From Clytia hemisphaerica (taxonomy: Eukaryota): a stretch of 64,000 nt of DNA. Shown here one piece after another: positions 2,031-42,908 of this stretch. The stretch is taken from contig NW_027104472.1 in the NCBI RefSeq assembly GCF_902728285.1, forward strand, positions 1,127,681 through 1,191,680, read 5' to 3'. The notes beneath the pieces are model-generated. The model did no database searches, was not told the DNA's origin, and saw only the letters and a program-made list of their open reading frames with translations. How positions within the stretch are numbered: position 1 is the first letter of the stretch; each line of letters opens with the position of its first letter. Both the position numbers and the translations under genes were made by a program.

Positions 2031-2580
2031 TTAGACTTAAGACTTAGAAGCTGAGCATCTGAGGATCCAAAAGTTCAAAAATGGTCCTTTAGGGTTTGAA
2101 ATATAGCCTAGAAACCAATAAATCCCCCCTAACCTGAGATCAGATTGTGGTTGTTTTCTGCCCACCACGCTGAAGCTCTAAAGGGATGGGTGAAAACATA
2201 CAATCTGACGAATATGCTATCTTAAAATCGTAAGGACGGCATTCGTCTAAAAGGACTGGGGATGACAACAAAGTTGCGTGATTGTGTTTACGAATAGGGC
2301 GCTGTATCAGTTTTTAACTTTCTGGCGCACAACAAGATTCTTATTGTAAAATTTTCCGCAGGACTATTTTCCTCAGATATATAATTTTCAAGTGCCTTCA
2401 GAGGTTTACAGTTCACGTAAGAAAATTATGAACAGCTATTATCAGGTACGGTACCCCCCAGATCGAAATATTCGATGAAATCAAGTTGAAGTCCCGAAAT
2501 TGAAATTCTCGCTCGAACTTCAATTTTCGAAAAATGGTAACATAGCCAAAATTGCCAATATGCTATGGCATTGATTGTAG
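2031..2580. repeat. SINE-like dispersed repeat (family C), copy interrupted by about 300 bp of unrelated sequence
   Basis: 2031-2145 and 2455-2580 are collinear with 5454-5667 (ttagacttaag...ctgaggatccaaaagttcaa...gaaaccaataaatccc...gatcgaaata(a/t)tcgatgaaatcaagttgaag...ctcgctcgaacttcaattttcgaaaaatggtaa...attgattgtag). A partial copy lies at 39225-39300. Confidence 0.6.
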
Positions 2581-2618
2581 TCTAATACAAAAAGAAATTT
2601 GTGTTCATTAATATTTAG

Positions 2619-2763
2619 GTCGAGTGCACGGTGTTGTGAAGGGCGAAGAAAGTACAGACGTCGCTGTGAAATGCTTGAAAGAAGGTTCGTCAGATGTGGC
2701 GAAAGCATCGTTCAACCAAGAAGTTGCTTTAATGTCCGTTCTGCAACATAATAATATACTAAG
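2619..2763 (+). CDS. RTK kinase-domain exon (VAVK catalytic lysine region)
   Basis: Acceptor atatttag (ag at 2617-2618). Translation GRVHGVVKGEESTDVAVKCLKEGSSDVAKASFNQEVALMSVLQHNNIL(R). Donor AG|GTAAGT at 2764. Phase is consistent with both flanking exons. Confidence 0.7.
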
Positions 2764-3636
2764 GTAAGTATAAGAACTGTTTGTGGATAGAAGGGTGGAG
2801 CTTTTATCTTACGGCGAAGAGTAATGTCAAACCCTGTCTAATCAGTCCTTTGGAGCTTGAAGAGACTTCTCACTGAGATACATGTTTTTTTATAAGCAAG
2901 TGTCTGCCCCTCTTGGTCAGGCTCGAGTATGCTTAAGCTTTCAAAACATCCAGGCATAACATATGCTTATTGCCACCGGAGGAAGCCTAAAGCTTCTGAG
3001 GATGGCATTCATAGCTTCACGCATAAGGAAGTTGGGCAAACATCTCATAATTTTGCGCGCGTTTTTCAGTATTTTAGTTCCGCTTAACGGTAGCATTCTT
3101 ATCTTACGGTCTCTCTATTGTTTTATCATCAACAAAAAGACTTTTCCGGAGTTATTTTGATCTGATTACTCATTTTGAAATGTCAGTTTGTCTTTTTTTA
3201 TCCCTGGAGAGTTAAATGAATCTAAGGAAATTCCCTTTTCTGGGAAATTAGTAGTTATTAAGGTATTTAAGTTATTAAGGTATTAAGCGCTCTTCATAGG
3301 TTAAAAATATTACTCTACTCAAGGTTTTCAAACACGAACGTTCTGCCACAATGTTTTCGGGTGCTGAATTTCCCTTGATAACTAACTTTTGACGCTCTTG
3401 CAGTACAAATAAAAGAGTGGCTGACGTCAGCTCAATATCCATTTTTAGTCCAAACATTAGAAAAAGTCGCACACTGGAATAGATGTTACAGCGTAGAAAA
3501 AGCCGCGACGTCTAGTATAGGCTAGGAACAAAATGAATTTTGTTTTTTGGCCATGTACTCGCTAGATAACATAAGGAGCTTGAATTCATGGCTTCGAATG
3601 GATTCAATTGATTTAATGAAAGTTTTTGTTTTGCAG

Positions 3637-3737
3637 GTTATTAGCCGTTTCGACAGAGGAGGAGCCATATTGTATGATTTTCGAATTCATGGAAAAAGGA
3701 GATTTGAATGAATTCTTACGACAATGGAATAGTAAAG
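3637..3737 (+). CDS. RTK kinase-domain exon (hinge region)
   Basis: Acceptor ttttgcag at 3635-3636. Translation (R)LLAVSTEEEPYCMIFEFMEKGDLNEFLRQWNSK, which aligns with the Trk segment [28 protein letters not shown]. Donor G|GTAGAG at 3738. Confidence 0.7.
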
Positions 3738-3896
3738 GTAGAGAGTTATAAGGGTAAATGGGGACAAATATCAAGTCATTATTTACAAACTTCTTTAACT
3801 TTTTTTCGTTCACGGGCACGGGCACGGGTAGTGACTAAGGGATCATAATCTGGTTTAGAAAGGGCTACATCATACACTACACAATATAACACCCCC

Positions 3897-4190
3897 TTCT
3901 CACAGACCTACTGGGACCCCTTCCCACTGGAAAAATTGTCCAAAATATCGTCCCCGGTGGAAAATGATCTGCAATTTTCATCCCCACTGAAAATAATCTA
4001 ATAAACCAAGCCTTTACTACAAAGAATTGTGCTATTTTTCTCACCGCTGAATTTTCTGACTTAAAAACAAAAGAATTGAAATCCCCAGCCATAGAAATAT
4101 GGGAATATCAATATCCCCATTGAGTCTCAGTCCGCTATTTTTATCCCCACTGGCTGAAAAAAATCCTACCGGGTCTGTGCGAAGGAGATG
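3897..4190. mobile_element. MITE family D (TIR cacccctgtctcaca / tgtgacacaggggtg), copy in RTK intron 3
   Basis: Repeated ccccactg(g/a) motifs. Copies lie at 12159-12450 (same orientation), 18497-18733 (perfect TIRs) and 44292-44535 (truncated). In 18497-18733 and 44292-44535 the internal ggcaaaaatttcgtccccggtggaa segment is inverted relative to 3897-4190 and 12159-12450. Confidence 0.6.
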
Positions 4191-4383
4191 TAGTATATTG
4201 TCAGTCAATATATTGACATTTACTAGTAATAGGATTGTTTAATTTTCCGATTCCTTTCAGTTTCCTCTTCTGATAACCAAAAAGCCTTAAACTTTTTTTC
4301 GACGGCTTTAAATGTTTTAATTATTTCACCGGTCGTATATGTAGCTTGATGACAGCATTGCCTATAATTTGGTGGTTACCTTA

Positions 4384-4548
4384 TCGGGGAAAACTTCGTC
4401 GGGGAAAATTTTCGTCGGGGAAAATTTTCGTAGGGATAAAATTCGTCACTTGCTGGTAGTTGGTAAACGTATTAAGGCCGGGGAAAATTTTCGTGGCGGG
4501 GAAAATATTCGTCACGTGTCCAAAATTTCGTCACTTTTCCCCGATATA
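4384..4548. repeat. Tandem array of a 16-bp ggggaaaattttcgtc-like unit with an inverted terminal copy
   Basis: Repeats ggggaaaacttcgtc, ggggaaaattttcgtc (several times), ending with the inverted cgtcacttttccccga. It lies about 60 bp upstream of the RTK exon-4 acceptor. Confidence 0.6.
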
Positions 4549-4607
4549 AGAGAAGGTATCTTTGGGAAATAAAAATAATAGCATGATAACAATTCATTTT
4601 GTGACAG

Positions 4608-4795
4608 AATATCTCAACGACAGTCAACTCATCAAAATATGTAAACACGTAGCAGCTGGAATGGAGTATCTTGCATCCAAGAAATTTCTACATAGAGATT
4701 TAGCGACGCGAAATTGTCTTGTTGGTAAAGACTTGATGGTCAAAATTGCAGATTTTGGAATGTCAAGAAATGTTTATCATTCTGATTACTATAGG
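4608..4795 (+). CDS. RTK kinase-domain exon (catalytic loop [14 protein letters not shown], activation-loop YY)
   Basis: Acceptor gtgacag (ag at 4606-4607). Translation (E)[62 protein letters not shown]. Donor AGG|GTAAGA at 4796. ORF-track entry 4562..4876 is this exon read through into the intron. Confidence 0.75.
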
Positions 4796-4812
4796 GTAAG
4801 ACTTCTTTTCTC

Positions 4813-4899
4813 CGGCCAGCTGACACAAAGTTGTTTCAACATTCACAACGTCAATGTAACGTTAGATGAACGTTGAGACAACGTCGTGTGCCAGCCTGG
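4813..4899. mobile_element. Palindromic MITE (family B, CCAGCTGGCACACAACGTT TIR), copy 1
   Basis: ccggccagctgacacaaagttgtttcaac...aacgtcgtgtgccagcctgg. It begins 17 bp after the exon-4 donor. A second copy lies at 10009-10108. Confidence 0.65.
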
Positions 4900-5453
4900 A
4901 AAAAACCTCTGGCTTTAGGTAGATTTTCCAAGAGATTCATCTGATGGGTTTTCTGGGTTTTCTGGGAATTGATTTTGAGTCATTCGGGGGAATACACATC
5001 GGTAAACTCATAAGTATATTTATGTGGTGGCTGTCTAACACCATACCTACTCTCAGCTCTCAGTCACCTCCTGCTTAGATCAGAACTAGACGGACCTAAA
5101 GTTAATTCCCTCTTCCTTCCGTGTGAGGAATGAAAAATTCAAGATCGTCGTATCAAAACTATCTGCATATATACGTGGTTTTTAAGAAATCTTTATCATT
5201 CTAAGTATGGATTAAGACCTTTGTCAAAAAATCCTCTCCCTAACAGCTTTTCTAACCACAGGCCACTTTGCTACCATTTTGCGTTATTGGCGTGACAGGA
5301 AGAAAATATGAAATTCTTTATGTATGGGAAGATAGCCAATCTACAATCAGTGACAAAATACTTGGCACAAAAGGGAAATTCACCGGGGTGTTTTGAAACC
5401 ACAATCGATTTGTAAGTGCTCTAAAGTAGGTTTGAAGGGTAGAGTTTTAGCGC

Positions 5454-5667
5454 TAGACTTAAGGACCTTAGGATCTGAGGATCCAAAAGTTCAACAATAG
5501 TCCAGTAGGGCTTGAAGTATAGCCTAGAAACCAATAAATCCCTTCCAGATCGAAATAATCGATGAAATCAAGTTGAAGGCCTGAAATTGACATTCTCGCT
5601 CGAACTTCAATTTTCGAAAAATGGTAAATTAGCCAAAAGTGCCAATATATTATAGCACTGATTGTAG
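5454..5667. repeat. SINE-like dispersed repeat (family C), intact copy in RTK intron 4
   Basis: See the 2031-2580 copy. Ends in ..gcactgattgtag. Confidence 0.6.
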
Positions 5668-12563: not shown

Positions 12564-12856
12564 TTTAGGTAATTATTTCAAGTTTTTATACGAAATATAC
12601 TTTCAAGAGAAAATTTTTTGGTGATTTAATAAAATTTCTAAATTTGGCGAGAATTAATTTTGGCGAACGACCCATTTTTTGTTGAATATTTAAGTTAAGA
12701 TTAAAAAGGATGAAAAAGCGTTTTTTAGGAGAAATAGAGACTAAATTGAAAGAAAAATTAAATTTGACGAGAATCAATTATGGCGAATGACCTATAAATC
12801 TAAATTTGGCGGGAAGAAATGTCTTTCCGCCAAAATTTCTTCTCTTAAAGGTAATA
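12564..12856. mobile_element. MITE family F (aatttggcg(g/a) motifs, hairpin end ggcgggaa..ccgccaaa), copy 1
   Basis: Both copies begin right after ttttaggta and end with a ggcgggaa...ttccgccaaaatttcttc hairpin. The second copy lies at 32724-33050. Confidence 0.55.
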
Positions 12857-14920: not shown

Positions 14921-15886
14921 GCTGACAATCGAGCAAAAACTTTTCATGTTGAGTATGTTTACATTATAAAACCAGAAATGAATAATATTTTGAAAACAGT
15001 GATCAAGTTAAAAAATAAAGGAGATTATTTATATAATACATATAATACAAGGGAATACAATAAGATGGAATAATAAAAGATTGCCAAAAAGTACACCATG
15101 AGAATTGATATAATGTGTTTTATGTGCAAATAGACTCAAGAAATTCTAGCTCTCATTCAGAAATTAGATGAATAATCTCATAAAAAAGTACTTTTTACAT
15201 TCAAAGTAAAAAGTTTGATGTTTTTAAGAATTATTAAAGGTACTAACAGTAATCATCAACAATCTGTAGGAAAGCACTTTTTCAACTTTTTCAATTGTAT
15301 GGAGTGTTGTTTATAATTCTATTGTAGAGATTGTTGTTATATATCATTTCAAAAATTCTGCATTCAATTGTACTCTTTTATGCTTACTTGTAGGGGGTGG
15401 AAGATGCAGGGGCAGTACTCTCAGAGAAAATTCATAAAATGGGGGGTCATTATTAACTGATTTTGGGGGGATTTTCCCAAAAAAACCCAAGGAAAATGAA
15501 GGTTTATGGCACTTTATCAGGAAAATTTCATAAATTGGAGGTCATTACAAAATGCTAATTGGGTGATTTTTACCAAAAAATTGCAAAACTACCACCTACA
15601 ATTTTAAGCACAAGAGGGTAATTTTTTCAGAGGTCACCAATGTCTCTTTTTGTATAAAAGTACCATATTATGACATGACGAAACCCAAAATATTTCCTCG
15701 CATCACATTATCTTGAAGCATGCATGAAGGTTCACCTTTCCAGAAATTTCATTCTTCAACCAAATTCAATCAAATTGCTAAAATGTTGTTCCCTAACCGA
15801 ACCTTTCTTCCAGTCTCTGTTATAAAACAAAGTTGTTCTTGTTTTTCTATAATAGTTTTCAAAAATAAAGCTAGCTAGCTTTTTTT

Positions 15887-16085
15887 CCATGTGAAATTTA
15901 TCAATGTCCAATGATGGGAGAAGAATCTCTCGAAACGTAGCCATGTGAAATTCATCAATGTCCAATGATGGAGAAGACTCTCTTGAAACGTAGCCAATCG
16001 CAAATCACGTGATCCATACATAGCTAGGTAGATTTTTTCCCCGTGATATTCCCGATGTCCGATGAGGGGAGAAGAGCCAAACGTA
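15887..16085. repeat. About 57-bp direct repeat, 2.5 copies, adjoining the satellite
   Basis: ccatgtgaaattt/catcaatgtccaatgatgg(g)agaaga(a)tctct(c/t)gaaacgtagcc twice, then a diverged third unit. Confidence 0.5.
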
Positions 16086-16199
16086 AATCTCGTGATTATA
16101 TTCAAGACACGATGAACTTCCACCAAATATTCACAATTCTGCACAATAGTCGAACGTGCGCAACGCACTGGGCTCAACTTCAGTGGCTTCAAATTATTC

Positions 16200-17088
16200 A
16201 TAGGCCCAATTGTAGACCCCAAGATATTCACCCAATGAACAAGTGTGCCAAATTTCAACCAAATCCGACCATTTAGGAGGCCTGTAGGCTGCTCCAAAGC
16301 TTTAGCCTCGTTTTGGCAAAAAACTCGTCCCCATGCCCCAAAAATCAAAATTTTTGAAAAATGCAAAAACCACACCCAGATATTCACCCAAGGAACAATT
16401 GTGCAGAATTTCAGCCAAATCAAACAATTTTTGAAGTCTCCAGGCTGCCCTAAGGTTTTAGCCTCGTTTTGGCGAAAAACTCGTCCCCAGGCCCCAAAAA
16501 TCAAAATTTTCAAAAAATGAAAAAAACACCCCCAGATATTCACCCAAGGAACAAGTGTGCAAAATTTCAGCCAAATCGAACAATTTTTGAAGTCTCCAGG
16601 CTGCCCCAAAGTTTTAGCCTCGTTTTGGCGAAAAACTCGTCCCAGGCCCCAAAAATCAAAATTTTTGAAAAATGAAAAAAACACCCCCAGATATTCACCC
16701 AAGGAACAAGTGTGCCAAATTTCAGCCAAATCGAACAATTTTTGAAGTCTCCAGGCTGCCCCAAAGTTTTAGCCTCGTTTTGGCGAAAAACTCGTCCCAG
16801 GCCCCAAAAATCAACATTTTTGAAAAAATGAAAAAAACACCCCCAGATATTCACCCAAGGAACAAGTGTGCCAAATTTCAGCCAAATCGAACAATTTTTG
16901 AAGTCTCCAGGCTGCCCCAAAGTTTTAGCCTCGTTTTGGCGAAAAACTCGTCCCAGGCCCCAAAAATCAACATTTTTGAAAAATGAAAAAAACACCCCCA
17001 GATATTCACCCAAGGAACAAGTGTGCCAAATTTCAGCCAAATCAAACAATTTTTGAAGTCTCCAGGCTGCCCCAAAGTTTTGGGACAT
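16200..17088. repeat. Satellite, about 155-bp unit, about 5.7 tandem copies
   Basis: Unit cagatattcacccaaggaacaagtgtgccaaatttcagccaaatcgaacaatttttgaagtctccaggctgccccaaagttttagcctcgttttggcgaaaaactcgtcccaggccccaaaaatcaaaatttttgaaaaatgaaaaaaacaccc. The first two units are more diverged than the rest. ORF-track proteins 15875..16738, 16567..17118 and 16672..16986 are translations of this array. Confidence 0.9.
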
Positions 17089-17119
17089 ACACACACACAG
17101 ACAGACACACACACACACA
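17087..17119. repeat. (CA)n / (ACAG)n microsatellite capping the satellite array
   Basis: acacacacacagacagacacacacacacacacat. Confidence 0.9.
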
Positions 17120-18496
17120 TTGTCAGATTCTAACTCAACTGAAGTTGAGAATTAAAGTCCTTTCCCATAAAAAATTCCAAACTTCATTTATCAAGCAAAA
17201 TTTATTTAAGTTTTGTTTTTGTTGGTATGAATGCTTCTCCTCTAAAGATAAACCAAAACAAAAATGTTTCCTCAGAATGAAAGTCGCCTTTTCTTTTTCT
17301 TTTGTCACTCTTCACCACACCAAACAAAATTAAAGCAGATGAAAATTCCATCACACAGAGCCTTTGTCAAAATCATCATACATTGATTGATATTGTTGTG
17401 TGATTCTCTCAAATTTACTGATTAAATTGAACCAAAAATGTCCTCAAAAAGATAAGTAATTGCCTGATTATTAACACTTTTCAGGGCTTCAATTCCTTTC
17501 TTTAAAACGCTGCATTGAACGCTTGCAAAGAAGTGAGGTCGTTTGCCGTACGAATGGCTACCCTTCAAATCATTTCAATATTTTGCCGGCGACGACATGC
17601 GACTGAATGTTATTTTTGTAGGAAAATCTTTTACGCTCAAAACGGTCGGTCAGGTTCGGTCTCGTATTTTTCGAGAAATTTCCTTGAACCACCTCAAATT
17701 TGCCATTTCACTGGATGCATTTTCTGAACCAGGTTCAAAATTAAAGATTTCCTAGCACAGAAGCAGCTAGATATGTAATCCCGCAAAAAAAAATCATAAC
17801 AAAGATTTTTTACAGCGCGGGAAAGCTAGCTACGCCGTACACACATAACCTAAAGATTTTTTAGCGCGGAAAAAGCTAATTTTGTCGCGCGCGCCACGGA
17901 ATCGCACGCCACATGCATACAACCCCTGGTAAAATAATATCGAGATATGACCAAGAAGAAAAATCAGCTCCGATCAGAAAACTAGATTTCACTTGAAGAA
18001 AGGGTCTTTGTATTTTTATTTACTAAAAGGGTTGGGGTGGTTCAGCTGAACCATTTGAACCCCCTCAGATCCGCCGCTGGAATACCGTTTTCCCGTCTCT
18101 TTTTTCGTCAAATCCCGTAATACTGTACTAAAATAGGGCCAATTCCGTCACACCGTAAAAGTACAAACCCCCTGAACATATTTACATGTACATATTTTTA
18201 TATTTTGGTGATAACAACATTACATACTTCAAAGATCGGATTTTTCTTAAATCAGCTTGTGCCAACCTTTTTAGATTTTGTTTTGGAAACGATTTGAACT
18301 CAAACACGCCTACCTCCTTCCAAAAACCATGGTAAATAGGATATCAAGCAAACTTAGAAAACTTTTCAAAAGATTTCTATAAACTCAAAAAAATTAATAG
18401 ATTTAACTTATTATTTAATATTATACAAAATAATTATTTCGCATTATTTTGAACAGAAAATAAAACGCCAGTAAGTATCACGAAATCTTTTAAAAC

Positions 18497-18733
18497 ACCC
18501 CTGTCTCACAACCCCGGTGAAACTTTTTCCACAGCGGGGATAAAAATTATATTGTCCCAAGGTTAAAAAATCCAATGCGAATGGTTTTGGACTGTTTTAA
18601 GCATTGAATTTCGAATGGGGGATGAAATCAAAGTCAATTTCTCAGTGGGGCTGGAATTCTAAGGCATTTTTTTCCACCGGGGACGAAATTTTTGCCAAAT
18701 TTTACAGTCAGCGGGTGTGTGACACAGGGGTGT
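18497..18733. mobile_element. MITE family D copy 3 (perfect TIRs)
   Basis: cacccctgtctcacaa ... tgtgacacaggggtg. Confidence 0.65.
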
Positions 18734-18865
18734 TTAACATTTCACTAGTTCTACCCTCTAAAATTGCCACTATACTTCTTTGTCTTGATCTCAGTAGTTA
18801 CATAATCAGCGATTCCTATACTCATACTGACCTTCATTTCACCGACAGATCCGGGAAGTCCTAAC

Positions 18866-18929
18866 ATGGGATTTGACGATGACGAAAGAAATTTATTACG
18901 TCCACAGTCCACTTCATCTCTACCAAAAG
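18866..18929 (+). CDS. Small 3-exon gene, exon 1 (ATG start), unknown about 107-aa protein
   Basis: ATG at 18866, the first Met of a frame open since 18806. Translation MGFDDDERNLLRPQSTSSLPK(G). Donor G|GTAAAT at 18930, phase 1. Confidence 0.45.
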
Positions 18930-18959
18930 GTAAATTACATCTCTTCATAGACTACACAG

Positions 18960-19064
18960 TAACCTCGTCTTCGTTTATCCCAGGTTTTATTTACGTTACT
19001 GAGAATATTTTCTGGCGCTACCAGCAAACATGAAAAATCCGATAATACACGGGGAACGAGGTTG
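18960..19064. mobile_element. MITE family H (TIR caacctcgtccccgtgtat), copy in intron 1 of the small gene
   Basis: aacctcgtcttcgtttatcccaggttttatttacgttactga...atacacggggaacgaggttg. Other copies lie at 20599-20717 and 27611-27742. Confidence 0.7.
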
Positions 19065-28458: not shown

Positions 28459-30503
28459 TTAAGGCAATTCTTTTCCCTTTTCATCCGATATCCCAACATC
28501 CACCACGTCACCCAAAATGCTGTTCGAATGTTCAGTTTGTTGACTAACTTCCTCTATCAAGTCATATGAACATCTACAACACGGAAAAACATTCCCGAAC
28601 CCGATTTCTAAGCGGGCTAATATACGGGCTAATTTCGGGAACAAAGTAAACCGATCTTCCAATAATATAAATGTGATGAAGTATAGGCAAATCAGCAAAT
28701 TTCCAACTCCAATCACGAATGACTTGATTTGTAAAACGAGTAAATTGTCTCGGTTATCCAAAGCTGTATAAGAGAGGATGATAGGCACAAGTGTAATCAA
28801 GTTGAGAAAATTACCAGACATTGTAGTACAAAGTTTCTCAAACCATTTACGTTCAATCGCTGTCATAATTTCGGGACGTCTCGGTAAATATTTCTCATAG
28901 GGATCCAGGTAGAGTACTAGTACGATATTAATCACGAGTAAAGCGATAATAAAGGGTCGTTGTAGTCCCCAAGTGATCGGTATAAAGGATAAAATGACGG
29001 ATAACAACATCCAACGTAACGTCAAGAAAACAACAAACACTGAGTGACCATTATATACGCCATCAGGGAGGAACATAATCCCAATTTCGTTATTAACATC
29101 ATCTGGGAATAATTGTTTGAAATAAATATAATGCAATGTAAATGGTATTCCAAGGAAATAAAAGAAAGACCCGAATATACCCAACATTTGGATTATGGAT
29201 TTTAGTTCACATTTCTTCCATGGTTGTGATGACATATACCATATGCCAGTTACTGGGTCCATTTTACAACTCAGCGTACTTAAGCTCATGTTACTCAAAG
29301 GAAACTGAAGAACTGACATGAATAAACAGTAAGAAAGAAATGCTCTCCTCCAAACTGGAATCTTCTGTACAGAACCAACAATCAGCATGTACAGTACTAG
29401 CAGTATTCCTAGTATGAGTGGTAGACAAAAAATAAGTACAAACGCACCTTCCCAGCCTAAGTTCGTTCCAGTGTAAAAATTCGGTAAACAGGCTAAACCA
29501 GGGACAGGTGCGTACATCATTTCTAAAAACTGTAGAAGATATTTCATGAAATTTGGCCATACGAAGTTTCCTTGTAATAACGCTTGTAGTGTTTGTATGT
29601 AGAAAATGAAAGTGAGTGTAGCATGCGGTGGAGAGCGAAGTTGTTGCATGTAGACAATCACTACGATGAAGACCATGAATAAAACTGACGCTGTGGAGGA
29701 GATCCCGAGAAGGACCAATAAAACGGTAATTAAAACTTCCAACAGGTTTTGATCGGTCACGGCATATTCGTTGAACGCTTTCGCCGATTTATGTTTACGT
29801 ATGAAATAGACTGCAAGAATGAAAATTGACGTAAGAAGGGCAGCGATGACGCAAACGGTTTGGCGTAAACCCATTGCACACGGGGCACAATGGTAAGGTG
29901 CTTTACGGTAATAGCCGTTCTCACAGGCCGAACAAAGTCGATCTTTATGCCCGATCGGACAGGGGTTTGAGCATGAGCTTGTACATTTTGGATCGATATC
30001 TGAAGCCGTGCGGTTTTGACAATGTAGATGACAGACTGAGCCCGTACATGGTGTAAACCGAGACATAGTCGTTGAGCATTTTATAACTGCCTGTAAATTA
30101 CGAGGTGTGTCTGGCCAATAGCCTTTAGAAACGTATAAAACAGCATCAGTTAGGTTGGTTGAGCCACCAATACACATGGCATTAGGCAAGCAAGGAACAC
30201 ATCTTTTTGTAGCCGACCCATAGTAGCTGATTTTACAGTAGCAATCGTCTATGGTCTTCGCGCCGACCTTCGAAGTTGCATTCTCTGGGCACCTTTCTTG
30301 AGTTGGTTTGACTGATCCTTTTGGACAGTAATATCCAGATAGACACGTTTGTGGAGCATTTGCTGCTTCGTCGCCAGAGAAACTTTGAGCAGTACCAGCA
30401 GGGCAATACGTGCCAGCTGGACATAAATGAGGTGGTGTTGCTGTCTTGTCTAAAACGTCTGCGAGTGGGTTGGATGTTGATGTACCCTCTTGACAAAAGA
30501 ATC
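28459..30503 (-). CDS. Large minus-strand gene, terminal exon: ephrin-receptor-like (GCC2/GCC3-type CxxGxYC) cysteine-rich repeats followed by about 10 predicted TM helices
   Basis: ORF-track entry 28459..30588 (709 aa). Acceptor tatttttag|g (minus, ag at 30505-30504) gives (G)FFCQEGTSTSNPLADVLDKTATPPHLCPAGTYCPAGTAQ...CLSGYYCPKGS...CSACENGYYRKAPYHCAPC, then hydrophobic segments VCVIAALLTSIFILAVYFI, LITVLLVLLGISSTASVLFMVFIVVIVY, GAFVLIFCLPLILGILLVLYMLIV, IIQMLGIFGSFFYFLGIPFTL, VFVVFLTLRWMLLSVILSFIPI, FIIALLVINIVLVLYL, FLNLITLVPIILSYTAL, FVIGVGNLLICLYFITFILL and others. Stop at 28459-28461. Confidence 0.7.
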
Positions 30504-30699
30504 CTAAAAATACAATGTGGGAAAGAAGGTTTATATGAAAAGATTTATAAAAGAGATTAGCCTTTACATTTAGTACAACACGAACCACAAAATTTACAAA
30601 AAATTAAAGTGCACTATTAGGTTTGATTGCTAATTCCTATTCCATGTTTAATAAGTAAAAAGTCTGTTGCAAATTCTTAGGAAAAGACGTAATACATAC

Positions 30700-32000
30700 C
30701 TTCTGGGCAAGCACCACTAGGTTGCAGTTGACTGTAATCACTACAGTAAAATCCAGCGGGACATAAACGACATCCCAAACCAGCATGACCTGGTGTACAT
30801 CTTGAGCAAAAATAATTTCTAGGTAAGACTGTATCTACACCATAACCGTTAATACAATCACCTATTAAATCCACTTTCTGTAGATACGTTACGAAGGTTA
30901 TACCGAACGGTTTAGTGTCTTGACCGCTGTGTATCATCCCGATTCCCGCAATCAAATCCGTATGATCGAACCGGTATAGTAAACGAAATGGGCACGAATC
31001 AGTCGCATACATCAAAACAGTTTTCTCAAAACTGATCACAAGTCTTTGTGCGATTTCATTGAAATCAAGAATCGGGATATTAGTGACAAATAAATCGTCA
31101 TATTTGGATAATAAACTTCCGAATTTATGATCAATACTTTGCGTACATACAGGCTGTAGTGTGATCGATGAAATAAAGGAAATATGATAAGTTTGATTAA
31201 CAACATTGGCTAGCGGTGTCTCAGCGCATAAAACAACCATCTGTGCACGCACGTAATCGTTATAGTTCGTAACAGCGAGACAATTTGTTATTTTGCCTTC
31301 ACGTTGTAGCTCAATCTTGTAATTTTGAGCGATTTTGTATTCCAATATTTTAGTAGAGACATCAGTTGTATTATGAGAAGCCAACAAGAAGGTATCAACA
31401 TTCGTGAAATAGATCACCCAAATACGAGTTGATTCTGTAGCATCGAAATCATCCCATGTCCAGCTACCTTTTACTTCTGCTTGCGCAACAATACCGGACA
31501 TGTTATATGATATACGGGCCATGTCCGCAATACGGAAAATCTGAATAGTTAAATAGTCGTTCGAAAGTTCTTGCACGACCAATAAATGATCATTCTTTGG
31601 GTTGATTCCTGCTTGGATGACGAAGACTTTATCACTGACACTAACGATGGAACGTAGATCCGGTGAACTGGTGTTTGTTACGGTTATAGCGGAAGCGCTA
31701 AACGCACCATACGGGGAGCGGTAGTATGACAGGTAAGCGAATGTTTTACCATCGGGTGAAAAGAAAGCGAAAGGGTGTTCAAAATTATGATTGATTCCGA
31801 CAGTTGATAAAGTATCGGCGATGAAGAAGGAGTAAGCTTCTGCGTACTCGAAGTCAATACTCAGTGCATTTTCTTTACTACCGTCACGGAAGAAGAGACG
31901 CCCTCCGTGTGAGAATAGCCAGATGTCACGTGACTGGTGATTGACCAATAGGAAGGACTCAGCAGGTGTGATACTTGTTGCAAGTGAAGGGTAAAGTAAC
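30700..32000 (-). CDS. Large minus-strand gene, exon 3: PD40/beta-propeller-like region plus first Cys-rich repeats
   Basis: Contains ORF-track entry 30677..31948. Acceptor tcttcttctttttag|g (minus, ag at 32002-32001). Translation (R)LLYPSLATSITPAESFLLVNHQSRDIWLFSHGGRLFFRDGSKENALSIDF...FFSPDGKTFAYLSYYRSPYG...CSRCTPGHAGLGCRLCPAGFYCSDYSQLQPSGACPE(G). Donor GAAG|GTATGT (minus) at 30699, phase 1. The 196-nt intron to 30504 restores CPEG-FFCQEG, a complete Cys repeat. Confidence 0.6.
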
Positions 32001-32329
32001 CTAAAAAGAAGAAGATTACAATTATTTTGATCTAATCGATGTAATGTTCAAAGAAGACGTTATTTGGTGATAAAATTTATTATTAATAACATTGAATTTT
32101 TTGTTTTTTTGTAGTTTACTAAAATATTAGAATTAGGCGTAATATTAGAAGTTCAGGTTAATTGTGCAGCACTTCATCATAAAAAAATTACTTAAAAAAA
32201 AAAGAATATGTACAACTAAAATTTGCCAGTTTTTGAGAGGATCTCAAAAATTAGTTTTTGAACTTATGATTACATTTTCAACGAATGCAGGTAACGTCCA
32301 TTCAAGATTGAAAGAATTGAAATATTTAC

Positions 32330-32546
32330 CTAGATGCAATCAATGCTGGTTGTAGTTCAGCGCGTACGTTGAAAATGAATCCTTTAGGATCAGCTGTTGC
32401 GCTAGGTACAATTTCGAAGAAGAATGTATCGCTTGATGCAAAACCGAATCGATTGATAGCGACACCCAGTCTCCAAGCAGATACGGTAAATGTGGAGATC
32501 GGATATGCAGATTTTCGGTCACTAATATCGAAGATGCGAGGTTCAC
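32330..32546 (-). CDS. Large minus-strand gene, exon 2 (laminin-G/pentraxin-like segment). Reading frame ambiguous.
   Basis: Acceptor tctcaccttag|gt (minus, ag at 32548-32547) and donor TCTAG|GTAAAT (minus) at 32329. Chosen frame gives (G)EPRIFDISDRKSAYPISTFTVSAWRLGVAINRFGFASSDTFFFEIVPSATADPKGFIFNVRAELQPALIAS. Its phases join exon 1 (phase 1) and exon 3 (phase 2) exactly. All three frames are open here, so the frame rests on phase continuity. Confidence 0.4.
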
Positions 32547-32723
32547 CTAAGGTGAGATTTTGACAAATTAAAACGAATGTATCGATGTTAATTTGAGTGA
32601 CTAAATAAGAGGGATATGTGGATGGGGAAATACAGAAGTATAGGAGAAATTCTCAGGAGTTTTAGAGAAAGATTAGAAAGAAATTTTCAAGAATTTTAGA
32701 GTCCCAAAAATATGTTATGCTTT

Positions 32724-33050
32724 TTAGGTACCTTAAAGGAAGAAGTTTTGGCGGGAATTTAATTTGGCGGATGACCGAAAAAGTTTTTTCAGAGGGAATT
32801 TAATTTGGCGGATGGCTGGAAAAATTAAATTTGAAGGGAATTTAATCTGGCGATTGCAGAATATTTTTGGCCAAAATCGTTATCAAATAAGCGAAAAAAT
32901 TTTTGTTTTAAGGCCTGAAATAGCACCAAGTTGGGGAATGCGTTAAATAAAATAAATTTGGCGGGAATTTAATTTGGCGGATTGAGGAAAAAATAAATTT
33001 TGGCGGGAACCGCCAAATTTTCTTTCCGCTAAAATTTCTTCCTTTAACGT
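32724..33050. mobile_element. MITE family F copy 2, inside intron 1 of the large minus-strand gene
   Basis: ggcgggaatttaatttggcggatgaccg...ggcgggaaccgccaaattttctttccgctaaaatttcttcc. Confidence 0.55.
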
Positions 33051-33291
33051 AAGTCGTATGTATTGTGGTATTCTGAAAACATCAAACGCTAAACTACATC
33101 CGGTCTCATCTCATGGATGGATTCTCAAAGTTCATCAGGAAAATGACCAGGTGAGGTTATTTTGAAAATTAATCGGCGGAATCTTAGATCTACTTCCCGT
33201 TGAAATAACCTTACGTTTATCCTATGAAACCAAACTTTGAGCAAGGAAATAGCTAAGGCTAATTGATACTGGAGTGTAGAATTAAACTTAC

Positions 33292-34303
33292 CAAGAATTA
33301 GACAAGCAATCAAACTTCCTTCGTTTGAAACGCTGCATGGAAAATGTTCGCTTAACGATCCAGTCAACATGTTAAAAGTCATTACAAGGTCTTGTATTAC
33401 AAATCCTCCACATTTATAAAAATGATGTGTCAAACGCCCGGCACAGTAGACAGAAAAGAAGGTTTTGAAGGAATGTGTGTCTGCGTTTAAAACAATGTAT
33501 TTGTCCAGTGACAACATTCGTTCTCCATCCTCAGCTGTAAACATAAGACCGGCAACACTCTCGTTGTTCGGGTTAATGACACAACTGTCGACAACCAATT
33601 CCAATTCACGACACGCTCTTAACGGACATGAATATAAACACGAGTCAGAGAAAACGTACAGGAAGTCATATGATGCAGCCACGTCGGTTACTTTCAATTC
33701 ATTTTGCAGGTCACCTATCACGAGATTACTTTCAAGTTGGATTTTACTGTCTGGCCAATCGAGAACATTAATAATAGAATAAAGCTGTGTCTTCTTTAGC
33801 CAGACAAGAACGGAAGAAGTTTTATTTCCGATAACGTGTACATGGAGCTCTCGCAAGTTATCAAACGCAGTGTAAACCAGCTCTAAATCCGAATCATCTG
33901 TTTCTTTCGTTAGACAAGTCTTTGAGAGCCGAACCAAAAAAGCTCGGTTTTTAGTCTTGCATTGTAAAGCAACCAAGTAGACAAAAGGTTGCACTAATAG
34001 AGCACTTTGTACTGAAATACACGAATCCCCCGTTACATTTTTAAGATTGATCTTGACAAGAGCACAATTTGAGGGTCCACTTTCTTCAGAGAATATCGCA
34101 TTTGCTTGCATTACATCATCAAGTAACGCCCATTCGACAACTGTTGTGTTTCCATGGGATACTGTTTGATAGGACATCGGGTTTGGACCAAGGTTTTTCG
34201 GTTTGTATAAGGAATCTTCGTAAAGTTCGGGGAAATATAAATTGCAGTTGACAAAGATACATAATGATGCGAATAAGCATATGTATGAGAAATGGTTCCA
34301 CAT
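33292..34303 (-). CDS. Large minus-strand gene, exon 1: ATG, signal peptide, Cys-containing ectodomain
   Basis: ATG at 34303. Translation MWNHFSYICLFASLCIFVNCNLYFPELYEDSL... (hydrophobic signal peptide) ...CPLRACRELELVVDSCVINPNNES...SLIACLIL(G). Strong donor CTTG|GTAAGT (minus) at 33291, phase 1. ORF-track entry 33125..34303 runs past this donor into the intron. A weaker alternative donor CCTG|GTCATT lies at 33147. Confidence 0.55.
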
Positions 34304-41240: not shown

Positions 41241-42908
41241 GTGACGATGGCTGCTAATAACGAACCGTTTCATCTATACCATTTACAGCTATTTGCTGTA
41301 AGTTCTATTGGACAACTTGCTTTACAGAAACTTATTGAGCGTTTTGCGAAGGAAGAAAAAGAAGGTGTTGCTGATGCTAAGGAAGCACTAAGTCAAATTT
41401 TTAATGACAATGCGGAGGAAGTGAAAAAGATTACCAATATATTTGTCAACCCTATTGTCACAAATGCAGTTTACGAAAACACTGTTAACCATGTTCTTAA
41501 AGAAGAGATTGAAATTGAAAAGTTAGACACCAACACATGTGCTGATGTCCTACGCAGAATCAAAGCGTTCCAAACTTCTAAAGATCATGCAGGTTCAAAA
41601 AATTGGCGTTGCAAAGGGCAAAACCATTTGAGTAAATGTTGCCCAGATTGTAAACATCTATGTCCTCAGCCTGACTGTCGGAAGGTAAAATGTAAAAAGA
41701 AGTGCTGTGTAACAAACAAAGAACACTGCTCTCATCCATGTATTCATTGTTGTTTACCTAACGACGACTGTAAGGATAACAAATACCTATGCTGTAAAGA
41801 TTGTTCATGCCTTGGCTGCGTACTGAAAGCCCTGGGTCTCAAAACTTGGCATCAACTTTACAAGGCTTTGGTTGACGAAAGCTTAACGACACACAACGTT
41901 TGTCCGATATTGCTACTACGGCTATCAATTTCAATTATTTCAACCTTCCGTAACATAACCATGCACTTGACAATACCTACATGTCGGAGTATGGACAATG
42001 GAACCTTTTTTGACCCAAATGCCCCTGCATATTGTACTTCATGGAAATACATCAAAGATACTCTTTGGTTTGCTGTTAAGACCTTGTTGGAGTATTTGAA
42101 AAACTGTCAACATATCACTGGATTTGATTATAAAGAACATTCTGAACTATTGGCTTTAATTTGTGGGGCTTCAAACAAACAGGATGTTTCAGTGTACAGT
42201 GCAAGGATTCAAAAGTTTGCAGAGCTTGAGAAATATTCTAAAATGGCCGATCTATTGATAACGTTAAAGATTGATTTAGATGTCGTCCATAAAAAGGTGG
42301 ACAAGGTAGATCAAACCACAAGGAATACCGAGAGAATTATCAAACAAAAGTCCCTAAAGATTGAAGCTCAAGCCGAGTTAGGGAAAAAGATGGACCGACC
42401 CTGTGATATGGATTCGCCGGAATTCGAAGAATTGAGAACAGCATTTGGAATCTCTGTAAACAAGTATTTTGGAGATGATGCCGAGGCAGTTATTACTCGC
42501 TTCAAATCGTTTCCATCTAACCATTTACCAGCAGACACGATTGAAATAAGATTCAAGATAACGTCAGATGAGACTTCCCTAAGAAATTATCGAGAATATA
42601 GAAAGGGACAGTCCCCGTCGTCCCCTCTTTGGAATGAAATAAAAGGAATCTTGCAACATACATTTCCTGGTGCTGAAATTTATGGTCCTGTTGATTGGGA
42701 CAGTGGCTCTATCATAATTCAAGTTTTGCTTTCGAAGGAAAAGAAAACTGACTGGACCACAAAGGAACTTGCGAATGTTGATTCTGTATTGGTGAAACTG
42801 GAAAAAAATGTTGAAGATTACTTACCTCAAGTGAAATGTGCTTGTAAACGAGTGGAACAGCCGAAGATATCAGCTACCCAGTTTCTGGAGATGAAAAACA
42901 GACAATAG
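41241..42908 (+). CDS. Intronless 555-aa ORF, Cys-rich central region, no recognised family
   Basis: ATG at 41241, TAG at 42906-42908. 1.67 kb free of stops in roughly 33% GC DNA. Central cluster CKGQNHLSKCCPDCKHLCPQPDCRKVKCKKKCCVTNKEHCSHPCIHCCLPNDDCKDNKYLCCKDCSCLGC. AT-rich TATA-like sequences lie upstream. Confidence 0.5.
   Translation: MTMAANNEPFHLYHLQLFAVSSIGQLALQKLIERFAKEEKEGVADAKEALSQIFNDNAEEVKKITNIFVNPIVTNAVYENTVNHVLKEEIEIEKLDTNTCADVLRRIKAFQTSKDHAGSKNWRCKGQNHLSKCCPDCKHLCPQPDCRKVKCKKKCCVTNKEHCSHPCIHCCLPNDDCKDNKYLCCKDCSCLGCVLKALGLKTWHQLYKALVDESLTTHNVCPILLLRLSISIISTFRNITMHLTIPTCRSMDNGTFFDPNAPAYCTSWKYIKDTLWFAVKTLLEYLKNCQHITGFDYKEHSELLALICGASNKQDVSVYSARIQKFAELEKYSKMADLLITLKIDLDVVHKKVDKVDQTTRNTERIIKQKSLKIEAQAELGKKMDRPCDMDSPEFEELRTAFGISVNKYFGDDAEAVITRFKSFPSNHLPADTIEIRFKITSDETSLRNYREYRKGQSPSSPLWNEIKGILQHTFPGAEIYGPVDWDSGSIIIQVLLSKEKKTDWTTKELANVDSVLVKLEKNVEDYLPQVKCACKRVEQPKISATQFLEMKNRQ

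What the first reader, a model, noticed from the sequence alone, without database searches (positions are those of the whole stretch)
28459..34303. Large-exon, CGT-biased minus-strand gene encoding a roughly 1524-aa protein of unusual architecture (signal peptide, LamG-like, PD40-like, ephrin-receptor-like Cys repeats, about 10 TM)
Four exons of 1012, 217, 1301 and 2045 nt join with perfectly matching splice phases. Junctions are CTTG|GTAAGT..ag|GT, TCTAG|GTAAAT..ttttag|G and GAAG|GTATGT..ttttag|G. The last junction recreates an intact CPEG-FFCQEG cysteine repeat, which supports the model. This contrasts with the other genes here, whose exons are mostly 100-330 nt with one 12-codon micro-exon. 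Arginine codons are dominated by CGT, with Ser/Pro/Ala codons often ending in G after C. The RTK and PDZ genes use AGA/CGA instead. The encoded protein has a cleavable signal peptide, about 1050 aa of ectodomain and about 470 aa of multi-pass membrane domain. The ectodomain includes an FSPDGKTFAY-type propeller blade signature and at least four CxxGxYC repeats. I cannot place this combination in a named family. It could be a lineage-specific receptor or channel, or a gene of foreign or transposon-borne origin that later acquired introns.
Basis: partly seen in the sequence, partly recalled or inferred. Interest (0 to 1): 0.7.

Follow-up and report, generated by a model that had tools for sequence, protein, structure and literature searches.

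The report
Jellyfish-lineage orphan multi-pass surface receptor gene
This is a real four-exon Clytia hemisphaerica gene for an uncharacterized 1524-aa surface protein, found only in jellyfish/hydroid relatives and myxozoan parasites, whose membrane part matches only protist receptor-like proteins and which was originally intronless.

Summary
The four-exon, 1524-aa minus-strand model is correct. Every splice junction is confirmed by orthologues, and junctions 1-2 also by a public Clytia model. The window is Clytia hemisphaerica, and public annotation truncates this gene at 843 aa, missing the membrane module.

The domain labels mostly fail. There is no Laminin_G, no significant PD40 and no Ephrin_rec_like/GCC2_GCC3 HMM match. 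Only four CxxGxYC motifs and about 11 TM helices are real. The codon contrast is weak: CGT is 39% of Arg codons, but GC3 and NCG share match the neighbouring RTK.

Orthologues occur in Hydrozoa, Scyphozoa and Myxozoa (66-76% and 35-39% identity). None was detected in Anthozoa or other animals, and none is characterized. The gene is intronless in a scyphozoan, has 2 introns in Hydractinia and 3 in Clytia, so introns were gained.

The 11-TM module is homologous (hhalign 99.95%) to the C-terminal module of protist LRR-ectodomain proteins. Those proteins show only sub-threshold similarity to fungal Flc/Pkd2 "TRP" (PF06011). No solved structure matches.

Best reading: an old, vertically inherited, lineage-restricted sensor/transducer, possibly channel-like. 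Function is inferred only. A recent foreign or transposon origin is rejected; an ancient protist origin remains open.

The parts
28459..34303 (-). Whole gene: 4 exons, 3 introns, 4575-nt CDS, 1524 aa
   Evidence: Orthologues align end to end.
33292..34303 (-). Exon 1 (1012 nt; aa 1-337 plus 1 nt). Signal peptide aa 1-20 (34244-34303), followed by the start of the novel ectodomain.
   Evidence: The public models P0119 and P0121 start at the same Met. An in-frame TAA lies directly upstream.
32547..33291 (-). Intron 1 (745 nt, GTAAGT..AG). It contains a dispersed repeat, with tandem 42-nt units at 32753-32852.
   Evidence: Position shared with Hydractinia (L001) and L002. The repeat also occurs at window 12625-12854.
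32330..32546 (-). Exon 2 (217 nt), encoding the most conserved block of the ectodomain (GEPRIFDISDRKSAYPIS...LQPALIASR)
   Evidence: 92-97% aa identity to Hydractinia and L002, and recognisable in myxozoans.
32001..32329 (-). Intron 2 (329 nt, GTAAAT..TTTTAG)
   Evidence: Same position in Hydractinia (135-nt insert after ...ALIASR) and in L002. Absent in the scyphozoan L003.
30700..32000 (-). Exon 3 (1301 nt): the rest of the novel ectodomain and the start of the Cys-rich region (from about aa 792, nt 30856)
30504..30699 (-). Intron 3 (196 nt, GTATGT..TTTTAG), a gain in the Clytia lineage
   Evidence: Absent in Hydractinia, in the 86%-identical relative L002 (single ORF 2246-5596) and in the scyphozoan. 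It causes a frame shift if left unspliced. No other copy in the window.
28459..30503 (-). Exon 4 (2045 nt): the rest of the Cys-rich region, the 11-TM module, the cytosolic tail and the stop codon
29878..30856 (-). Cys-rich region, aa 792-1052 (interrupted by intron 3). It holds four CxxGxYC motifs plus the juxtamembrane motif RLCSxCxxGYYRKxPxHCxPC.
   Evidence: DUF7630 is sub-threshold (18.6 bits) at the juxtamembrane end. That motif is invariant across the protist relatives.
28651..29871 (-). 11-helix transmembrane module, aa 1055-1461 (N-terminus outside, C-terminus inside). It has an extracellular beta-hairpin loop with conserved C1256 and C1275.
   Evidence: AlphaFold model with pLDDT 74, pTM 0.72. 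Hydropathy. Homology to the protist LRR-TM family.
28462..28650 (-). Cytosolic C-terminal tail, aa 1462-1524, with a poly-Cys cluster (FPCCRC, aa 1484-1488)
   Evidence: Cys clusters at the same place in orthologues. Palmitoylation is an inference.

Best explanation
SHOWN.
- The locus is the Clytia hemisphaerica orthologue of an uncharacterized, strongly conserved gene. Family members include Hydra LOC101236455, Hydractinia LOC130647473, Rhopilema LOC135689472 and Thelohanellus RF11_02443.
- The gene is restricted, as far as can be detected, to Medusozoa plus Myxozoa.
- It encodes a type-I-oriented multi-pass membrane protein. The order is: signal peptide, a roughly 770-aa ectodomain of no recognisable family, a roughly 260-aa Cys-rich stalk with CxxGxYC motifs, a conserved juxtamembrane Cys motif, an 11-helix TM module and a short cytosolic tail.
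- The TM module, together with the juxtamembrane motif, is homologous to the C-terminal module of protist proteins. Those proteins carry LRR ectodomains, or in Rhodelphis PLAT-LamG-Kelch-Filamin.
- The gene was ancestrally intronless and gained introns within Hydrozoa.

INFERRED.
- The protein sits at the cell surface, or on a secretory-organelle membrane, with the ectodomain outside.
- The lineage-specific ectodomain binds an extracellular ligand, matrix component or mechanical partner, and the conserved multi-pass module transduces that event.
- Transduction is most likely a gated cation (Ca2+) flux, in the manner of the fungal Flc/Pkd2 (PF06011) proteins that the protist relatives weakly resemble.
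- Polar residues conserved in TM helices from protists to cnidarians (Q in the YIQT motif, N1408, N1445, R1340) fit a transport or channel role better than a passive anchor.
For: - Gene model and splice sites.
- Species identity: P0119 is 100% and P0121 99% identical, both Clytia hemisphaerica.
- Distribution: 13 hits among 5.8 billion proteins, all hydrozoan, scyphozoan or myxozoan where named. The N-terminal profile search found the same taxa only.
- Myxozoan loci encode the TM module too (HMM E=7e-89 and 2e-73).
- Intronless scyphozoan ORF.
- TM module relatives: exhaustive HMM search gave 47 hits. The named ones are Cercozoa, Amoebozoa and Rhodelphis.
- Ectodomains of those relatives are LRRNT_2+LRR, or PLAT/LamG/Kelch/Filamin.
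- hhalign of the cnidarian against the protist profile: 99.95%, E=5e-38, 361 columns.
- PF06011 is sub-threshold (20-22 bits; best E=1.8e-5) in several relatives.
- The AlphaFold model improved from pLDDT 54 to 74 once the protist sequences were added, which fits true homology.
- S. pombe Pkd2, a PF06011 protein, is a stretch-activated Ca2+-permeable protein with an extracellular N-terminal domain and a cytosolic tail (PMC9727806).
Against: - No functional or expression data exist for any member.
- The Clytia protein itself gives no PF06011 hit at E<=1. The link is transitive and sub-threshold.
- Absence from Anthozoa rests on word-indexed searches, not on an exhaustive scan of the ectodomain.
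Confidence: 0.55

Rival explanations
1. Adhesion receptor. The ectodomain and Cys-rich stalk bind substrate or neighbouring cells. The multi-pass module serves mainly as an anchor, trafficking or cytoskeleton-coupling platform, as proposed for Dictyostelium SadA (signal peptide, 3 EGF-like repeats, 9 TM).
For: The architecture parallels SadA (PMC2173991). The relatives carry classic binding ectodomains such as LRR and Kelch/Filamin. Some relatives hit the LRR_ComC model of a Dictyostelium EGF-like protein.
Against: Homology to SadA could not be tested because no sequence was available. The TM module is conserved at 59-80% identity among medusozoans, with invariant polar intramembrane residues from protists to cnidarians. 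That is more than an anchor needs.
Confidence: 0.2
2. Sensor for stinging-organelle (nematocyst / polar capsule) discharge or biogenesis. This would be analogous to the alveolate CRMPs, which have a Cys-rich ectodomain plus 9 TM and trigger rhoptry and mucocyst exocytosis.
For: The full-length architecture is retained in gene-poor Myxozoa, whose only prominent cnidarian trait is the polar capsule (PMC6134521). At least one nematocyst protein (NSP3) has the same Medusozoa+Myxozoa distribution. The CRMP layout and role are documented in PMC9670195.
Against: The gene is not among the nematocyst-specific proteins shared with Myxozoa in that survey. It was not detected in Anthozoa, which also have nematocysts. 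There are no expression data. CRMP homology was not tested, and none of the relatives scanned carries Kringle, MAR or EGF ectodomains.
Confidence: 0.12
3. Ancient horizontal acquisition. A protist gene of the 'ectodomain - DUF7630-like Cys motif - multi-TM' type entered the stem lineage of Medusozoa+Myxozoa as an intronless gene. It then replaced or evolved its ectodomain and later gained introns. This concerns origin and is compatible with any of the functional readings.
For: The gene is ancestrally intronless. It was not detected in Anthozoa or any other animal. All taxon-labelled relatives of the TM module are protists. The nearest relatives are themselves intronless ORFs with plant/protist-type LRRNT_2 caps.
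Against: Most of the nearest relatives have no taxon label and could be animal, with contig GC of 37.6-38.8%, close to the 36-38% of the hydrozoan and scyphozoan loci examined. In a distance tree the cnidarian clade is not nested inside any protist group. Identity is only 19-23%. The 770-aa ectodomain has no protist counterpart. Vertical descent with loss, or retroposition, explains the same facts. Composition is native.
Confidence: 0.25
4. Recent foreign or transposon-borne gene.
For: Large exons. CGT is the commonest Arg codon.
Against: Orthologues exist across Hydrozoa, Scyphozoa and Myxozoa, with shared intron positions within Hydrozoa. GC3 and NCG usage equal those of the neighbouring RTK. 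No terminal repeats or transposase are associated with the gene; the only repeat lies inside intron 1.
Confidence: 0.02
5. Two separate genes (a secreted 843-aa protein and a separate membrane protein) wrongly joined. This is what the public Clytia model implies.
For: The public model P0121 ends exactly at the exon-3 boundary.
Against: The sequence is contiguous in a single ORF in Hydractinia, in L002 and in a scyphozoan. The exon-3 frame stops 6 codons after the donor site. The donor, acceptor and polypyrimidine tract are canonical.
Confidence: 0.03

Closest known systems
Unnamed protist family 'LRR ectodomain - juxtamembrane Cys motif (DUF7630-like) - about 10-11 TM' (e.g. Cercozoa sp. M6MM MES1912359.1; a Clastostelium recurvatum transcript; a Rhodelphis marinus protein with a PLAT-LamG-Kelch-Filamin ectodomain)
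   Same: The juxtamembrane motif RLCSxCxxGYY..C..C and the whole TM module are homologous (hhalign 99.95%, 361 columns). The extracellular-loop cysteines, the YxQT motif and the FP and RR motifs are the same. The overall layout, with the ectodomain outside and the multi-pass module at the C-terminus, is the same. The three nearest-relative genes examined are also intronless.
   Different: The cnidarian protein has no LRRs. Instead it has a roughly 770-aa ectodomain with no detectable relatives, plus a longer Cys-rich stalk. Identity in the shared module is only 19-23%. The protist family is itself uncharacterized.
Fungal Flc / Pkd2 / TrpR 'TRP' family (Pfam PF06011), e.g. S. pombe Pkd2, a stretch-activated Ca2+-permeable protein
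   Same: Signal peptide, extracellular N-terminal domain, multi-pass C-terminal module and cytosolic tail. The protist relatives of the Clytia TM module give repeated sub-threshold PF06011 matches over about 130-230 residues.
   Different: No PF06011 match for the Clytia protein or any cnidarian orthologue. There is no ML-like TRP_N domain. The relationship is at best superfamily-level and unproven.
Alveolate CRMPs (cysteine repeat modular proteins; Toxoplasma CRMPa/b, Tetrahymena CRMP1/2)
   Same: Signal peptide, Cys-rich EGFR-type region and multiple C-terminal TM helices (nine in Toxoplasma and Plasmodium, five predicted in Tetrahymena). They are proposed to sense contact and trigger extrusive-organelle exocytosis (PMC9670195). 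The layout matches, and the biology is suggestive for an animal with stinging organelles.
   Different: Sequence homology was not tested. CRMPs carry MAR or Kringle domains, which are absent here. The distribution is Alveolata.
Dictyostelium SadA substrate-adhesion receptor
   Same: Signal peptide, extracellular Cys-rich (EGF-like) repeats and nine TM helices; located at the cell surface (PMC2173991).
   Different: 952 aa, with tenascin-type EGF repeats. Homology was not tested. No counterpart of the large N-terminal domain.

Membership tests
Laminin_G / LamG | Match to a Laminin_G-type Pfam model above its cut-off | tested here: not met
   No hit at E<=1 in the Clytia protein or in any of the 14 family members.
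PD40 / WD40-like beta-propeller | Several PD40 repeats above the cut-off (20.9 bits), with repeated blades | tested here: not met
   One 16-residue stretch at 15.2 bits, E=0.022, seen in 3 of 14 members. Self-hhalign of the N-terminal profile finds no internal repeat (probability 0.2%).
Ephrin_rec_like (PF07699) / GCC2_GCC3 | HMM match above the cut-off | tested here: not met
   No hit, even at E<=10, on the isolated Cys-rich region of three orthologues.
Ephrin_rec_like (PF07699) / GCC2_GCC3 | CxxGxYC-type cysteine motif repeats | tested here: met
   Four motifs at aa 823, 841, 871 and 897. UniRef names the myxozoan orthologue an 'ephrin type A/B receptor-like domain-containing protein'. A motif resemblance alone does not establish membership.
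Fungal TRP / Flc / Pkd2 (PF06011) | PF06011 match at or above 28.5 bits | tested here: not met
   No hit in cnidarian members. The protist relatives reach 19.5-22 bits, with a best E of 1.8e-5 in 4 of 18 TM modules.
Fungal TRP / Flc / Pkd2 (PF06011) | N-terminal ML-like (TRP_N) domain | tested here: not met
   No such Pfam hit.
Classical 6-TM TRP / polycystin channels | Ion_trans or PKD_channel Pfam match, or a 6-TM tetrameric channel fold | tested here: not met
GPCR / adhesion GPCR | 7-TM fold; GAIN/GPS domain | tested here: not met
Protist LRR - Cys motif - multi-TM family (unnamed) | Homologous multi-TM module with the juxtamembrane RLCSxCxxGYY..C..C motif | tested here: met
   Exhaustive HMM search, E down to 1.6e-14. 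hhalign 99.95%, E=5e-38. Invariant Cys, Pro, Gln and Asn columns.
Protist LRR - Cys motif - multi-TM family (unnamed) | LRR (LRRNT_2 + LRR) ectodomain | tested here: not met
   No LRR hit in any cnidarian member. LRR is present in most of the relatives scanned; exceptions are P0048, the Rhodelphis protein P0055 and five proteins with no Pfam hit.
Alveolate CRMP | Sequence homology of the TM module and the Cys-rich region to Toxoplasma, Plasmodium or Tetrahymena CRMPs | not tested
None of the relatives scanned has Kringle or MAR domains. The architecture alone is similar.
Dictyostelium SadA/ComC-like | Sequence homology to SadA | not testable with these tools
   The sequence could not be obtained. 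Only the published description was available. LRR_ComC hits occur in two protist relatives.
Medusozoa+Myxozoa orthologue group (Hydra LOC101236455 and others) | End-to-end alignment with conserved blocks and the same domain order | tested here: met
   65-76% identity to the full-length orthologues at 96-99% coverage (69-87% to partial models), and 35-39% to myxozoans. The TM module is present downstream in the myxozoan loci.

The most novel reading that the evidence does not exclude
A protist 'receptor ectodomain + multi-pass TRP-like module' gene was captured as an intronless gene by the common ancestor of jellyfish, hydroids and myxozoans. It acquired a new 770-aa ectodomain and became an essential contact or mechano-sensor that gates Ca2+ entry for stinging-organelle (operculate nematocyst / polar capsule) discharge. 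That would be a functional analogue of the alveolate CRMP complex that triggers rhoptry and mucocyst exocytosis.
Probability: 0.07. Interest if true: 0.85.

Novelty: new variant of a known kind. Interest (0 to 1): 0.55.

Why it matters
- **Annotation.** The public Clytia model is truncated at 843 aa, and the Thelohanellus model also stops short of the membrane module. The true product is a 1524-aa multi-pass protein.
- **An unstudied, constrained gene family.** The family is about 66% identical between Hydrozoa and Scyphozoa and has no curated domain over its full length. It is confined to Medusozoa plus Myxozoa and is retained in highly reduced parasites. Genes with that profile are candidates for clade-defining cell biology and for antiparasitic targets in fish-pathogenic myxozoans.
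- **A new modular family.** Its TM module defines, together with protist LRR proteins, a widespread but uncurated 'sensor ectodomain + multi-pass' family. This may connect to the fungal Flc/Pkd2 putative mechanosensitive channels.
- **Intron gain.** The 0, 2, 3 intron series gives a clean, datable case of intron gain in Cnidaria.

Tried and rejected
- **TM structure, first attempt.** AlphaFold on the TM module with only hydrozoan and scyphozoan sequences gave pLDDT 54.5, too poor to use. It was redone with the protist relatives added.
- **PDB sequence and profile searches.** Nothing was found for the whole protein, the family profile or the TM profile.
- **Word-indexed search with the diverse TM alignment.** It returned nothing, even for the orthologues, probably because hydrophobic words swamped the candidate list. 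That search was wasted.
- **N-terminal profile search.** No new taxa.
- **Synteny with Hydractinia.** None beyond the gene itself.
- **Exact look-up of the exon-4 ORF product.** Intended to retrieve annotated neighbours, but it is not on record.
- **Neighbouring long ORFs.** No Pfam domains. Pooling all window ORF fragments for Pfam was abandoned as too large. The RTK exons were located by motif instead.
- **Taxonomy of the nearest non-cnidarian relatives.** Contig look-ups showed only metagenome-style contig names, so no organism could be assigned.
- **Literature.** Searches for every accession of the family found no paper. The gene is not among the NSP1-7 proteins of Shpirer et al. 2018.
- **Intron 3 as a repeated 'introner'.** No other copy was found in the window. 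This could not be tested genome-wide.

Full report
**1. The observation**

The minus strand between 28459 and 34303 holds three long ORFs of 392, 423 and 709 aa. They give a 4575-nt CDS of 1524 codons with one terminal stop. Introns are GT..AG and the phases are 1/2/1. An in-frame TAA directly precedes the ATG.

The model is therefore exactly as described. It is also supported independently:
- A public UniRef Clytia protein (A0A7M5X5A0, P0121, 843 aa) is 99% identical. It crosses junctions 1 and 2 in the same way.
- The Hydractinia symbiolongicarpus orthologue has introns at the same two positions.
- Across junction 3 the Hydractinia gene, a close Clytia relative and a scyphozoan gene are uninterrupted ORFs. 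They read ...SGACPEGF[FY]C.EGTSTSNP... with no gap relative to the spliced Clytia product.

**2. Source organism and state of annotation**

A EukProt entry (EP00111 Clytia hemisphaerica, TCONS_00025977; P0119) is 100% identical to exon 1 and then reads on into intron 1. The window is therefore Clytia hemisphaerica.

Both public models are incomplete. P0119 retains intron 1. P0121 stops at the last codon of exon 3 (...ACPE) and lacks the entire membrane module.

**3.

Pfam gives only one hit to the 1524-aa protein: a 16-residue PD40 stretch at 15.2 bits, below the 20.9-bit cut-off. Scanning all 14 family members gives the following:
- PD40: 3 of 14 members, best E=0.019.
- Laminin_G: no hit.
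- Ephrin_rec_like or GCC2_GCC3: no hit.
- DUF7630: a recurring sub-threshold hit in 10 of 14 members, located just before the first TM helix.

The isolated Cys-rich region from three orthologues still gives no ephrin-receptor-like hit at E<=10. A self-comparison of the N-terminal profile finds no internal repeat, so sequence gives no support for a multi-blade propeller. No PDB chain matches by sequence or by profile.

What is real:
- Four CxxGxYC motifs.
- A signal-peptide-like N-terminus followed by the conserved mature end N[IL]YFPELYED.
- The multi-pass C-terminus.

**4. Composition**

CGT is the commonest Arg codon but accounts for only 20 of 51 (39%). In RTK exon fragments from the same window it is 1 of 15 (Fisher p=0.025).

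GC3 (0.38 vs 0.36) and the share of NCG among NCN codons (0.18 vs 0.19) are the same as in the RTK. CpG observed/expected in the exons is 0.95-1.37, against 0.88 for the whole window.

The CGT preference is shared by a close relative (37%) and partly by a scyphozoan (29%), but not by Hydractinia (10%). Nothing here indicates foreign composition.

**5. Distribution**

A search of 5.8 billion proteins returned 13 relatives. Cluster look-ups name the following:
- Hydra vulgaris LOC101236455 (72% identity).
- Hydractinia LOC130647473 (76%).
- The scyphozoans Rhopilema esculentum LOC135689472 and Sanderia malayensis, plus eukprot gene models in GoldUCD 'Seg' naming, probably Aurelia (65-66%).
- The myxozoan Thelohanellus kitauei RF11_02443 (39%, partial model).

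All are labelled 'uncharacterized'. Both myxozoan loci encode the TM module immediately downstream of their truncated models (HMM E=7e-89 and 2e-73). The full architecture is therefore conserved there too.

No anthozoan or non-cnidarian relative appeared, including in a profile search with the ectodomain. Blocks such as LQPALIASRLLYPSLATSITPAESFLLVNH are recognisable even in myxozoans, so an anthozoan orthologue of similar conservation should have been found. This is still absence of detection, not proof of absence. No paper mentions any accession of the family. The gene is also not among the nematocyst-specific proteins shared with Myxozoa.

**6. Gene-structure evolution**

- The scyphozoan orthologue is a single 4581-nt ORF that translates exactly to the database protein.
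- Hydractinia and an 86%-identical relative from a metagenome scaffold have introns 1 and 2 only.
- Clytia hemisphaerica has a third, 196-nt intron with no other copy in the window.

The simplest history is an ancestrally intronless gene with stepwise intron gain in Hydrozoa. This explains the 'large exon' anomaly.

**7. The membrane module**

An exhaustive HMM search of 1.84 billion representatives with the cnidarian TM profile gave 47 hits. Beyond cnidarian fragments, about 39 proteins match at E=1e-14 to 1e-4. Many are about 1000-1400 aa long, with the match at the C-terminal end.

Their ectodomains are LRRNT_2+LRR, sometimes with a PA domain. In Rhodelphis marinus the ectodomain is PLAT-LamG-Kelch-Filamin. 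The named relatives are Cercozoa, Amoebozoa and Rhodelphis.

Profile-profile comparison of the cnidarian and protist modules gives 99.95% probability, E=5e-38, over 361 columns. Shared features include:
- The juxtamembrane motif RLCSxCxxGYY..C..C.
- The YxQT motif.
- An extracellular GLxC.
- A CxxDP..YM..PW..C loop.
- Several invariant Pro, Asn and Gln residues.

Adding these sequences raised the AlphaFold model from pLDDT 54.5 to 74.1, with pTM 0.72. The model has 11 membrane helices. The implied topology is N-terminus outside and C-terminus inside, which places the conserved cysteines outside.

Several protist relatives give sub-threshold matches of 19.5-22 bits (cut-off 28.5) to PF06011, the fungal Flc/Pkd2 'TRP' family. 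The cnidarian proteins give none. Homology to the protist family is therefore shown, whereas a link to PF06011 is only a lead.

**8. How it probably works**

Shown: the order of modules, the topology constraints and the homology of the transducing module.

Inferred:
- The protein is a surface, or secretory-organelle, sensor.
- The lineage-specific ectodomain and Cys-rich stalk engage an external partner.
- The conserved 11-TM module converts that event into a cellular signal, most plausibly a cation (Ca2+) flux. The analogy is S. pombe Pkd2, a PF06011 protein that permeates Ca2+ on membrane stretch. It is predicted to have an extracellular N-terminal domain and a cytosolic tail (PMC9727806).
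- Polar residues conserved within helices, and the fact that the module is combined with quite different ectodomains in protists, argue that it is an autonomous effector rather than an anchor.

Alternatives:
- An adhesion-receptor role like Dictyostelium SadA.
- A role in triggering stinging-organelle exocytosis, analogous to alveolate CRMPs. Retention in Myxozoa makes this attractive, but no data support it.

**9. Origin**

A recent foreign or transposon-borne origin is excluded by the orthologue distribution and the native composition.

An ancient transfer from a protist is compatible with three observations: the ancestral lack of introns, the absence from other animals, and the protist-only labelled relatives.

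It is not demonstrated, for four reasons:
- The nearest relatives lack taxon labels. Their contigs have 37.6-38.8% GC, close to the 36-38% of the hydrozoan and scyphozoan loci examined.
- The cnidarian clade is not nested within a protist clade in a distance tree.
- Identity in the shared module is about 20%.
- The ectodomain has no protist counterpart.

**10. Verdict**

This is a correct and useful gene model for a real, conserved, uncharacterized family. The 'unplaceable architecture', 'lineage-specific receptor or channel' and 'introns acquired later' ideas hold. Interest is moderate. The gene is ordinary in being vertically inherited and already present in databases as a hypothetical protein. 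It is unusual in its distribution, its degree of conservation, its ancestral lack of introns and its protist-type membrane module.

Noticed in passing
window 30504-30699 (intron 3); L002:2246-5596; L001:11877-15188; L003:6001-10581: The third intron exists only in Clytia hemisphaerica among the loci examined. The series of 0 introns (scyphozoan), 2 (Hydractinia and a close relative) and 3 (Clytia) is a clean case of stepwise intron gain in an ancestrally intronless gene.
   Followed up: yes
window 28459-34303 versus public proteins P0121 (A0A7M5X5A0) and P0119 (TCONS_00025977): Both public Clytia models of this gene are incomplete. One ends at the exon 3 boundary (843 aa, no membrane module). 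The other reads through intron 1.
   Followed up: yes
L004:8538-10046 (Thelohanellus kitauei JWZT01003589.1) and L005:3750-5204: The myxozoan gene models stop before the TM module, which is encoded directly downstream in another frame. This could be a small intron, a frameshift or an assembly error. L004 also contains 5168 N bases.
   Followed up: partly
window 32747-33051 (inside intron 1) and 12625-12854: A dispersed repeat built from GGCGG(G)AATTTAATTTGGCGG-like units in direct and inverted orientation, with a tandem 42-nt unit at 32753-32852. It coincides with the strongest GC skew in the window (+0.31 at 32001-33000) and looks like a MITE-type insertion.
   Followed up: partly
window 41241-42908 (+): Another long uninterrupted ORF (555 aa) with a Cys-rich stretch (CCPDCKHLCPQPDCRKVKCKKKCC...) and no Pfam match. 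The receptor gene is therefore not the only large-exon ORF in the window.
   Followed up: partly
window 992-1510, 2612-2764, 4550-4873 (+): Exons of a receptor tyrosine kinase: a TM segment plus GxGxFG, then VAVK, then [11 protein letters not shown] motifs. They were used only as a codon-usage comparator.
   Followed up: partly
window 15875-17118 (-), region 16001-19000: Two overlapping ORFs (287 and 183 aa) with no significant Pfam hit, lying in a stretch of strongly negative GC skew (-0.24 to -0.14) and positive AT skew.
   Followed up: no
protein aa 1484-1488 (window about 28570-28584) and the same position in orthologues: A cluster of cysteines (FPCCRC; CCCC, FFCCH and similar in orthologues) a little way (about 20-25 aa) after the last TM helix. 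It may be a palmitoylation site.
   Followed up: no
P0055 (Rhodelphis marinus, 2810 aa); P0023 (PA + LRR): In protists the same multi-TM module is fused to quite different ectodomains: PLAT-LamG-Kelch propeller-Filamin, PA+LRR, or LRR alone. It therefore behaves as a portable effector module.
   Followed up: partly
L001:967-8450 and window flanks: There is no synteny between Clytia and Hydractinia around the gene. The Hydractinia upstream neighbour is an EML-like (HELP + WD40) gene, and a DDE_Tnp_4 transposase ORF lies downstream. Neither has a counterpart in the window.
   Followed up: partly
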